A model generated the notes under the pieces. It saw only the letters and a list, made by a program, of their open reading frames with translations. It was not told where the DNA came from and did no database searches. A stretch of DNA of 566 nt, taken from a phage. Shown in pieces: positions 2-566 of the stretch (its first letter is position 1; each line of letters begins with the position of its first letter). Made by a program: the position numbers and the translations under genes. Where the stretch lies: sequence record EF517024.1. The stretch is one strand, 5' to 3'.

Positions 2-106
2 TGGGAAAAAGAAAACCCACCAGTACAAGCAACTGAGTGTATAGCTTGCTTAGAGAAAGATAACCGTTATCCACACACATCTGTAACAAAGGAGCTAACG
101 ATATGA
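2..106 (+). CDS. 5'-partial ORF encoding a peptide like the N-terminal extension of T7 gp1.7, in a different frame from the kinase body; ends at TGA 104-106, overlapping the kinase ATG (ATGA)
   Basis: The frame beginning at position 2 is open from the window start and reads WEKENPPVQATECIACLEKDNRYPHTSVTKELTI then stop. Up to ...RYPHT this matches my recollection of T7 gp1.7 residues about 9-34, then diverges where a roughly 2-nt indel near 80-83 changes the frame. The kinase frame has stops at 34-36 (TGA) and 61-63 (TAA), so it cannot extend upstream. Confidence 0.45.
   Translation, partial: WEKENPPVQATECIACLEKDNRYPHTSVTKELTI
89..94 (+). promoter_or_regulatory. Shine-Dalgarno ribosome binding site for the kinase ORF
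   Basis: AAGGAG is a perfect match to the SD core, with 8-nt spacing to the ATG at 103. Confidence 0.8.
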
Positions 107-566
107 CCGAACGTGAACAAGAGATGATTATTAAGTTGATAGACAATAATGAAAGTCGCCCAGATGATTTGAATGGCTGCGGTATTCTCTGTTCCAATGT
201 CCCTTGCCACCTCTGCCTCGCAAATAACGATCAAAAGATAACCTTAGGTGAAATCCGAGCGATGGACCCACGTAAACCATATCTGAATAAACCTGAGGTA
301 ACTCCTACAGATGACCAGCCTTCCGCTGAGACAATCGAAGGTGTCACTAAGTCTTCCCACTATATGCTGTTTGGCGACATTGAGGCTATCGAAGTGATTG
401 CTCGTTCAATGACCGTTGAGCAGTTCAAGGGATACTGCTTCGGTAACATCTTAAAGTACAGACTACGTGCTGGTAAGAAGTCAGAGTTAGCGTACTTAGA
501 GAAAGACCTAACGAAAGCAGACTTCTATAAAGAATTCTTTGAGAAACATAAGGATAAATGTTATGC
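103..566 (+). CDS. 1.7: T7 gene 1.7-like nucleotide (dTMP/dGMP) kinase; 3' end runs off the window (154 complete codons, no stop seen)
   Basis: ATG at 103-105 lies 8 nt downstream of AAGGAG (89-94). The frame is open to the window end. Translation: MTEREQEMIIKLIDNNESRPDDLNGCGILCSNVPCHLCLANNDQKITLGEIRAMDPRKPYLNKPEVTPTDDQPSAETIEGVTKSSHYMLFGDIEAIEVIARSMTVEQFKGYCFGNILKYRLRAGKKSELAYLEKDLTKADFYKEFFEKHKDKCY. From memory this is near-identical to T7 gp1.7 from its internal Met (about residue 42) to near the C-terminus. The other + frames and all minus frames are broken by stops. Confidence 0.85.
   Translation, partial: MTEREQEMIIKLIDNNESRPDDLNGCGILCSNVPCHLCLANNDQKITLGEIRAMDPRKPYLNKPEVTPTDDQPSAETIEGVTKSSHYMLFGDIEAIEVIARSMTVEQFKGYCFGNILKYRLRAGKKSELAYLEKDLTKADFYKEFFEKHKDKCY
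550..554 (+). promoter_or_regulatory. Probable Shine-Dalgarno site for the downstream overlapping small gene
   Basis: AAGGA lies 8 nt upstream of the ATG at 563-565 and is embedded in the kinase coding sequence. Confidence 0.4.
563..566 (+). CDS. 1.8: Probable start of the next small ORF (T7 gene 1.8-like, function unknown), overlapping the kinase 3' end; only the first 4 nt are in the window
   Basis: ATG at 563-565 is in a different frame from the kinase and is preceded by AAGGA at the proper spacing. In T7, as I recall, gene 1.8 starts a few nt before the gene 1.7 stop. The body of this ORF is not visible. Confidence 0.35.

What the first reader, a model, noticed from the sequence alone, without database searches (positions are those of the whole stretch)
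64..106. Gene 1.7 homologue is split into two frames: the N-terminal extension is uncoupled from the kinase body
In T7, as I recall, gene 1.7 is a single 196-codon ORF producing a long form and a short form from an internal Met, both present in the active oligomer. Here the extension (frame of position 2) and the kinase body (frame of position 103) are in different frames and meet at an ATGA stop/start overlap. Only the short form can be made by ordinary translation, and the extension would be a separate peptide of 40+ aa. The pattern fits a 2-nt insertion near 80-83 (...cacacatCTgtaacaaa...). This could be a natural variant, a laboratory mutation (gene 1.7 loss is reported to alter dideoxythymidine sensitivity) or a sequencing or assembly error.
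Basis: partly seen in the sequence, partly recalled or inferred. Interest (0 to 1): 0.6.

Follow-up and report, generated by a model that had tools for sequence, protein, structure and literature searches.

The report
Frameshifted T7 gene 1.7 allele
This is phage T7's nucleotide kinase gene (gene 1.7) from a heavily mutated, probably laboratory-mutagenised T7 lineage, in which a 2-base insertion cuts off the dispensable N-terminal extension but leaves the kinase body with its own start site: an ordinary loss-of-isoform mutation.

Summary
The window matches T7 8190-8753 (gene 1.7 from codon 9, plus the gene 1.8 start) at 97.3% identity. It carries a 2-nt insertion (AT, window 79-80) at the CACACAC run. 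The upstream reading frame now ends at TGA 104-106, which overlaps ATG 103-105 (T7 Met42). That ATG has its own AAGGAG 8 nt upstream.

Reference T7 has one 196-codon ORF; here only the short form can be made by ordinary translation.

The context makes it ordinary:
- All 13 substitutions are derived relative to T7. Twelve are G>A or C>T, and missense to silent is 8:4, the neutral ratio. This matches the deposited mutagenised T7 isolates K, K115, P and P82.
- The extension is lost repeatedly elsewhere. Three natural Kayfunavirus isolates carry +2 at the same CA run with the same ATGA junction. Three others carry a -2 deletion, one lost the start codon, and a laboratory T7 clone deleted the extension.
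- Most relatives (K1F and many Klebsiella-type phages) encode only the short-form equivalent.

A sequencing error cannot be excluded without reads. Interest is low.

The parts
2..106 (+). 3' part of the uncoupled N-terminal ORF. It covers T7 gene 1.7 codons 9-34, then 8 out-of-frame codons (SVTKELTI) and stop TGA 104-106. The product would be 42 aa if the 8 upstream codons match T7.
   Evidence: Translation; alignment to T7.
72..80 (+). CA dinucleotide run. The window has CACACACAT; T7 has CACACAC. This is the site of the frameshift.
   Evidence: R1 and LNA5 have CACACACAC, and SHAK9454 has CACACACGC, at the same place.
79..80 (+). The 2-nt insertion (AT) relative to T7, lying between T7 8267 and 8268 in AY264774 numbering.
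88..94 (+). Internal Shine-Dalgarno sequence AAAGGAG, 8 nt upstream of ATG 103. It is invariant at the DNA level in all 21 sequences compared that carry the extension.
   Evidence: The region shows no stable RNA structure.
103..106 (+). ATGA stop/start overlap: ATG of Met42 (short-form start) and TGA of the upstream ORF.
103..566 (+). Kinase body, equivalent to T7 gp1.7 residues 42-196 (the short form). There are 154 complete codons plus GC of the last Ala codon; the stop lies beyond the window. It carries seven missense changes: G59S, P80L, H101Y, P125S, D132G, A178T and L186F.
343..531 (+). DUF3310 (PF11753) domain, the module shared by all gp1.7-family proteins compared here.
   Evidence: E = 1.4e-22, residues 81-143 of the body.
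563..565 (+). Start codon of gene 1.8, overlapping the end of gene 1.7.
   Evidence: Alignment to AY264774, where the gene 1.8 CDS starts at 8750.

Best explanation
The window is gene 1.7 (nucleotide kinase, DUF3310 family) of a T7 derivative that accumulated GC>AT transitions at about 2.3% without detectable purifying selection on this gene. That pattern points to a chemically mutagenised or mutation-accumulation laboratory lineage.

One lesion is a +2 frameshift at the short CA run in codons 32-34. It is either an AT insertion or one extra CA unit by replication slippage followed by a C>T transition. Ribosomes that start at the normal gene 1.7 start codon now read 8 wrong codons and stop at the TGA that overlaps Met42. 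They would make a 42-aa peptide lacking Cys35 of the C-x2-C...H-x-C motif, so it is probably inert.

The kinase body is still translated as in wild type. Initiation would be at the internal AAGGAG-N8-ATG site, possibly helped by termination-reinitiation at ATGA. Only the 155-aa short form is made.

Shown: the indel, the two frames, the Shine-Dalgarno sequence and ATG, the mutation spectrum, and the natural and laboratory parallels. Inferred: that translation behaves this way, that the peptide is inert, and that the body, with 5 of 7 missense changes at invariant columns, may itself be impaired.
For: - Indel and frames.
- T7 is the closest relative at 97.3%, with no exact match in any collection.
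- All 13 substitutions are derived. At 12 of 13 sites all or nearly all outgroups carry the T7 base. Window position 19 is uninformative for four outgroups because they lack that part of the extension..
- The spectrum is 5 G>A, 7 C>T, 1 A>G and no transversions. The polarity test gives P = 0.003..
- Missense to silent among the GC>AT changes is 8:4, against a neutral expectation of 159:83..
- The deposited mutagenised T7 isolates K, K115, P and P82 show the same spectrum at 1.0-1.5%..
- Five of the 7 body missense changes fall in columns invariant in 9 relatives, where 53% of columns are invariant. Conserved sites are not avoided..
- The internal Shine-Dalgarno sequence and Met42 are invariant in relatives. 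The initiation region is unstructured.
- The extension is dispensable. T7 clone T7_1t3 deleted about 100 bp covering it and kept the short form. Three Kayfunavirus isolates have +2 at the same run, three have -2, and one lost the start codon. In 64 of 80 IMG/VR loci the CIAC motif was not found by a strict pattern. About 40 of these begin directly at the Met42 equivalent (MTERE.. or MTDQK..), while a few carry divergent variants of the motif. K1F encodes 155 aa.
Against: - No reads are available, so a base-calling or assembly error at 79-80 cannot be excluded.
- The source record was not found, so the laboratory-lineage origin is inferred from the mutation spectrum alone.
- AT is not a clean slippage product. 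The slippage reading needs a second event.
- The gene's start codon lies outside the window.
- The two-isoform biology of gp1.7, and the near-equal kinase activity of the two forms, rest on my recollection of Tran et al. 2010/2012. These papers could not be read here.
Confidence: 0.8

Rival explanations
1. Sequencing or assembly artefact. The phage has an intact 196-codon gene 1.7, and the two extra bases are a base-calling or editing error.
For: No other record carries this exact junction. The comparable deposited mutagenised T7 records contain ambiguous bases, for example G>N in isolate K. Two of the three natural +2 records are flagged UNVERIFIED.
Against: A dinucleotide insertion of two different bases is not the usual homopolymer-type error. 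The gene shows no sign of purifying selection, so a real frameshift would be tolerated. Real disruptions of the same segment occur in independent natural and laboratory genomes.
Confidence: 0.12
2. Natural T7-like variant in which the split arrangement is a maintained, functional two-gene architecture: a small Cys-rich peptide plus a translationally coupled kinase.
For: The same +2 and ATGA junction is found in R1 (China) and in LNA5 and SHAK9454 (Australia). This shows the arrangement can persist in nature.
Against: - The window's substitutions are polarised GC>AT with a neutral missense-to-silent ratio, unlike natural divergence.
- The frameshift removes Cys35 of the conserved C-x2-C...H-x-C motif.
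- The out-of-frame tail is simply what T7's +1 frame encodes.
- Close relatives of the +2 phages (Bia, SHAK7854, Esher7) are in frame.
- The +2 pattern is absent from IMG/VR and the JGI metagenomes.
Confidence: 0.05
3. Programmed ribosomal frameshifting (-1) between positions 64 and 102 restores a long form despite the insertion.
For: Both frames are open across 64-106, and a Shine-Dalgarno-like AAGGAG lies inside that stretch. In principle this could stimulate shifting.
Against: Frame 2 has no X XXY YYZ slippery heptamer between 64 and 106 (read directly). There is no stable downstream RNA structure (z = +0.96). A +1 shift at ATA TGA would enter frame 3, not the kinase frame. Wild-type T7 needs no recoding here.
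Confidence: 0.02

Closest known systems
Phage T7 gene 1.7 (gp1.7 nucleotide kinase, NP_041967; Pfam DUF3310)
   Same: 97.3% DNA identity over the whole window. Same position between genes 1.6 and 1.8. Same internal Shine-Dalgarno sequence and Met42. DUF3310 domain present.
   Different: A 2-nt insertion breaks the single 196-codon ORF. There are 9 amino-acid substitutions, all derived.
Mutagenised T7 isolates K, K115, P and P82 (AY264775-AY264778; the GenBank set of Bull et al. 2003, an attribution from memory)
   Same: Substitutions are almost exclusively G>A and C>T relative to wild-type T7. K and K115 have C>T at the last C of the same CA run, CACACAT-CTGT.
   Different: No substitutions are shared with the window, so the lineage is independent. 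Those isolates keep gene 1.7 in frame (K and K115 have an in-frame 3-nt deletion). The window's substitution density is higher: 2.3% against 1.0-1.5%.
Kayfunavirus isolates vB_EcoP-R1 (OQ703102), LNA5 (MZ311861) and SHAK9454 (OR594184)
   Same: +2 at the same CA run. The small ORF MGCIACLEKDD[HR]YPHTPVIKELTI* ends in the same ATGA overlap with the kinase start.
   Different: They are natural isolates only about 80% identical to the window. The extension is 23 codons rather than 41. The inserted unit is a clean CA (GC in SHAK9454).
Short-form-only nucleotide kinases (K1F gp1.7, 155 aa; Klebsiella-type phages starting MTEREIQVV...)
   Same: The gene product corresponds to T7 residues 42-196 and starts directly behind gene 1.6 with an ATGA overlap. 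This is what the window can still make.
   Different: These phages have no remnant of the extension at all.
T7 clone T7_1t3 (OL964750)
   Same: A laboratory T7 that has lost the extension but keeps the Shine-Dalgarno sequence and a 155-codon gene 1.7.
   Different: The loss is by a deletion of about 100 bp ending inside the CA run, not by a frameshift.

Membership tests
T7 gp1.7 / DUF3310 nucleotide kinase | DUF3310 (PF11753) domain above the gathering score | tested here: met
   79.9 bits against a cut-off of 24, E = 1.4e-22, residues 81-143 of the body.
T7 gp1.7 / DUF3310 nucleotide kinase | Genomic position between gene 1.6 and gene 1.8 of a T7-like early/middle region | tested here: met
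   The window is colinear with T7 8190-8753, including the gene 1.8 ATG at 563-565. Gene 1.6 itself lies outside the window.
T7 gp1.7 / DUF3310 nucleotide kinase | Single continuous 196-codon ORF, as in reference T7 | tested here: not met
   The +2 at 79-80 ends the upstream frame at TGA 104-106.
T7 gp1.7 / DUF3310 nucleotide kinase | Internal ribosome-binding site and Met42 that give the short form | tested here: met
   AAGGAG at 89-94 and ATG at 103-105. Both are invariant in relatives.
T7 gp1.7 / DUF3310 nucleotide kinase | dTMP/dGMP kinase activity; two co-purifying isoforms | not testable with these tools
   This needs biochemistry. The primary papers (Tran et al. 2008, 2010, 2012) are not held. 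The kinase function is quoted second-hand in PMC7693777 and PMC11897194.
Chemically mutagenised / mutation-accumulation T7 lineage | All differences from wild-type T7 are derived, and almost all are GC>AT transitions | tested here: met
   12 of 13 are G>A or C>T. Outgroups carry the T7 base. Isolates K, K115, P and P82 show the same spectrum.
Chemically mutagenised / mutation-accumulation T7 lineage | No purifying selection signal in a non-essential gene | tested here: met
   Missense to silent is 8:4 against a neutral 159:83. Five of 7 body missense changes fall at invariant columns. The sample is small.
Chemically mutagenised / mutation-accumulation T7 lineage | Identity with a deposited laboratory line | tested here: not met
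   The best match is 97.3%. There was no exact DNA or protein match in any collection searched.
Programmed ribosomal frameshift site | Slippery heptamer plus a stimulatory element, conserved among relatives | tested here: not met
   No X XXY YYZ in frame 2 between 64 and 106. No stable structure. Most relatives are simply in frame.
Translationally coupled gene pair (ATGA overlap) | Stop and start codons overlap, with a Shine-Dalgarno sequence inside the upstream ORF | tested here: met
   ATGA at 103-106 and AAGGAG at 89-94. The arrangement is a by-product of T7's own sequence, and actual coupling is untested.

The most novel reading that the evidence does not exclude
The short CA run in the gene 1.7 extension could be a recurrent slippage hotspot that works as a natural on/off switch for the long isoform in T7-like phages. 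Independent +2 events occurred in the T7 lineage of the window and in the R1/LNA5/SHAK9454 group. Other independent ways of losing the extension are also seen. This would imply selection to shed the N-terminal Cys/His module under some conditions. One possible reason is that gp1.7 is sensed by host defence proteins such as EfAvs5 (PMC11897194).
Probability: 0.05. Interest if true: 0.5.

Novelty: already known. Interest (0 to 1): 0.15.

Why it matters
It matters little on its own. It is a frameshift allele of a well-studied, non-essential T7 gene in a genome that looks deliberately mutagenised. It has three practical uses:
- Annotators should call two ORFs, or a pseudogene plus the 155-codon kinase, rather than forcing a 196-codon gene.
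- The allele is a ready-made short-form-only gene 1.7 that could be used to ask what the long isoform adds.
- The comparison shows that the N-terminal Cys/His extension of gp1.7 is an optional module. It has been lost repeatedly in nature and in the laboratory, and the T7 short form corresponds to the commonest architecture of the family.

Tried and rejected
- Finding the source. I tried megablast against INPHARED, exact 25-41-mers spanning the junction in IMG/VR, the JGI metagenomes and GTDB genomes, and exact protein look-up of the 155-aa body and the presumed 42-aa peptide.
- Looking for +2 variants with the pattern CCACACACNNCTGTAAYAAAGGAG in IMG/VR and the metagenomes. There were none, so the natural +2 alleles are known only from three INPHARED records.
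- Reading the primary gp1.7 papers and Springman et al. 2010. They are not held, and a full-text search for 'gene 1.7 protein' gave no hits. The two-isoform claim therefore remains recalled, not verified.
- Programmed frameshifting. There is no slippery site and no structure, so I rejected it.
- Natural divergence as the source of the 13 substitutions. The polarity, the absence of transversions and the neutral missense-to-silent ratio argue against it.
- PDB search for a solved relative of gp1.7. None was found, and I did not run a structure prediction because it would not change the verdict.
- The weak DUF2387 'metal-binding' hit of the small peptide (E = 0.006, below the cut-off). It was not used as evidence.

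Full report
**What is in the window**

The 566 bases align end to end with phage T7 (AY264774 8190-8753) at 97.3% identity, and no record in the phage collection is closer. In T7 this stretch is gene 1.7 from codon 9 to its penultimate base, plus the first four bases of gene 1.8. T7 gene 1.7 is one ORF of 591 nt, or 196 codons. Pfam finds DUF3310 in the C-terminal part of both the T7 protein and the window's product.

**Checking the observation**

Frame 2 is open from position 2 and stops at TGA 104-106. Frame 1 has its last upstream stop at TAA 61-63, carries ATG at 103-105 and is open to the end of the window.

The pairwise alignment contains one gap. T7 reads CACACAC-CTGT and the window reads CACACACATCTGT, so the extra bases are AT at 79-80. 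Removing either pair restores ...YPHTCNKGANDM..., but only the 79-80 placement needs no mismatch.

The ATG at 103 is T7 Met42. AAGGAG lies at 89-94, 8 nt upstream of it. The surrounding RNA is no more structured than shuffled sequence, in both the window and T7.

**Where the sequence comes from**

Besides the insertion there are 13 substitutions: 5 G>A, 7 C>T and 1 A>G, with no transversions. Six natural relatives carry the T7 base at these sites. The one exception is position 19, where four of the outgroups lack the homologous segment. Every change is therefore derived on the window's lineage.

This polarity is unlikely for two naturally diverged sequences (12 of 13 in one direction, two-sided P = 0.003). 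Among the GC>AT changes, 8 are missense and 4 silent, which equals the neutral expectation for this gene (159 missense against 83 silent possible GC>AT changes). Five of the seven missense changes in the kinase body hit columns that are invariant in nine relatives, although only 53% of columns are invariant.

The four deposited mutagenised T7 isolates K, K115, P and P82 (AY264775-8) show the same near-exclusive G>A/C>T spectrum, at 1.0-1.5%. The window shares none of their substitutions and is more heavily hit, at 2.3%.

I conclude that the window comes from an independent, heavily mutagenised or mutation-accumulation T7 lineage in which gene 1.7 is drifting. The source itself was not found in any collection. 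N-methyl-N'-nitro-N-nitrosoguanidine mutagenesis of T7 populations is documented second-hand in PMC8923235. That this mutagen gives GC>AT transitions is my own background knowledge.

**How the frameshift probably arose and what it does**

The site is a (CA)3C run. K and K115 carry C>T at its last C, giving CACACAT-CTGT. The natural phages R1 and LNA5 carry one extra CA, giving CACACACAC-CTGT. The window's CACACACAT-CTGT equals one extra CA unit plus that C>T, or a direct AT insertion. The data cannot distinguish the two.

Downstream of the shift the ribosome reads SVTKELTI and stops at the TGA inside ATGA. That TGA already exists in T7's +1 frame (GATATGACC), and this frame is open from window 54 onward. 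Any +2 or -1 frameshift between 54 and 102 would therefore create the same overlap. The overlap is a by-product, not a designed coupling signal.

The presumed product is a 42-aa peptide, assuming the start codon and the other seven upstream codons outside the window match T7. It keeps C21-x2-C24 and H33 but loses C35, so the conserved C-x2-C...H-x-C motif is broken. The kinase body keeps its own Shine-Dalgarno sequence and ATG, so the short form should still be made. This is an inference.

By my recollection of Tran et al. (Mol Microbiol 2010; J Biol Chem 2012), wild-type T7 makes both a 22-kDa and an 18-kDa form, which co-purify and have similar kinase activity. I could not read those papers here.

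**Relatives**

The segment GCIACLEKDDRYPHTC is in frame with the body in these phages:
- T7, SYGE1, Yanou, HZ2R8, 3A_8767, Bas104 and 64795_ec1;
- YZ1, LI10P1, Bia, SHAK7854, Esher7 and WW2;
- several IMG/VR genomes.

It is broken in several ways in others:
- R1 (China), LNA5 and SHAK9454 (Australia) have +2 at the same CA run. Each has a 25-codon ORF ending in the same ATGA overlap.
- Midid, Milel and Emlis have a 2-nt deletion that gives MGCIACLER*.
- IME177 has ACG in place of the start codon.
- The laboratory clone T7_1t3 (OL964750) has deleted about 100 bp. This removes the extension up to the CA run and leaves the Shine-Dalgarno sequence plus a 155-codon gene.

K1F encodes only 155 aa. 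In 64 of 80 IMG/VR loci the CIAC motif was not found by a strict pattern. About 40 of these start at the equivalent of Met42 (MTEREIQVV... or MTDQK...) directly behind gene 1.6, and a few others carry divergent variants of the motif.

Met42 and the AAAGGAG are invariant wherever the extension exists. The short form is thus the common architecture of the family, and the extension is an optional module that is often lost.

**Rivals**

- A sequencing error cannot be excluded without reads. However, a two-different-base insertion is not a typical error, and the gene shows no constraint that would make a real frameshift implausible.
- A maintained two-gene architecture is unlikely. The spectrum is mutagenic, the Cys/His motif is truncated, and the nearest relatives of the natural +2 phages are in frame.
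- Programmed frameshifting is unsupported. There is no slippery heptamer and no RNA structure.

**Verdict**

The feature is an ordinary frameshift allele of a known, non-essential T7 gene in a mutagenised background. It has natural and laboratory precedents for losing exactly this segment. Interest is low.

The one mildly interesting by-product is the repeated, independent loss of the gp1.7 extension, twice through +2 at the same CA run. gp1.7 has been reported to activate the Avs5 defence protein (PMC11897194), so this might merit a look, but nothing here tests that idea.

Noticed in passing
L012 396-470 (OQ703102), L100 (MZ311861), L094 (OR594184): Three natural Kayfunavirus isolates, from China and Australia, carry +2 at the same CA run as the window. 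Each has a 25-codon ORF MGCIACLEKDD[HR]YPHTPVIKELTI* ending in the same ATGA overlap. Their close relatives Bia, SHAK7854 and Esher7 are in frame.
   Followed up: yes
L098, L101, L102 (OX461104, OX460914, OX460933); L096 (MZ398247): Midid, Milel and Emlis share a 2-nt deletion (GAGAAAGATGAC to GAGAGATGAC) that truncates the extension to MGCIACLER*. IME177 has ACG instead of the extension's ATG. Its kinase body is also annotated as two overlapping CDS (364-672 and 639-833), which suggests a second frameshift.
   Followed up: partly
L107 620-760 (OL964750, T7 clone T7_1t3): A laboratory T7 clone has a deletion of about 100 bp (roughly AY264774 8164-8263). It joins the end of gene 1.6 to the CA run, removes the gene 1.7 extension and leaves the internal Shine-Dalgarno sequence and the 155-codon short form.
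   Followed up: partly
L003 and L004 (AY264776, AY264775), aligned to window 3-11 and 78: Mutagenised isolates K and K115 have an in-frame 3-nt deletion near gene 1.7 codons 9-11. They also have C>T (T34I) at the last C of the same CA run where the window has its insertion.
   Followed up: partly
L024, L032, L041, L047, L025, L059, L073, L063-L066 (IMG/VR loci): The gp1.7 family is modular. The N-terminal C-x2-C...H-x-C segment is joined to a different Cys-rich middle in T3-like genomes. In others it is joined directly to the DUF3310 domain. Many Klebsiella-type phages have only the middle and the DUF3310 domain. DUF3310 is the only constant part.
   Followed up: partly
L051 1189 and 1640 (IMGVR_UViG_2974604219_000001): The same MGCIACLEKPEVTPTDDQ... 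start, with the extension motif fused straight to the C-terminal domain, occurs twice 451 nt apart. This suggests a tandem duplication of a shortened gene 1.7.
   Followed up: no
window 86-94 and the homologous positions in 20 relatives: The codons AAA GGA G.. (Lys-Gly-Ala/Val) that form the internal Shine-Dalgarno sequence never vary at their synonymous positions, whereas neighbouring codons do (TAT/TAC, CCA/CCG, CAC/CAT, ACC/ACA, TGT/TGC, AAC/AAT). This is consistent with selection on the ribosome-binding site itself.
   Followed up: partly
window 563-566: The gene 1.8 start codon (ATG 563-565) overlaps the last codons of gene 1.7. The window ends 1 nt before the end of the final Ala codon, so the gene 1.7 stop codon cannot be seen.
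   Followed up: yes
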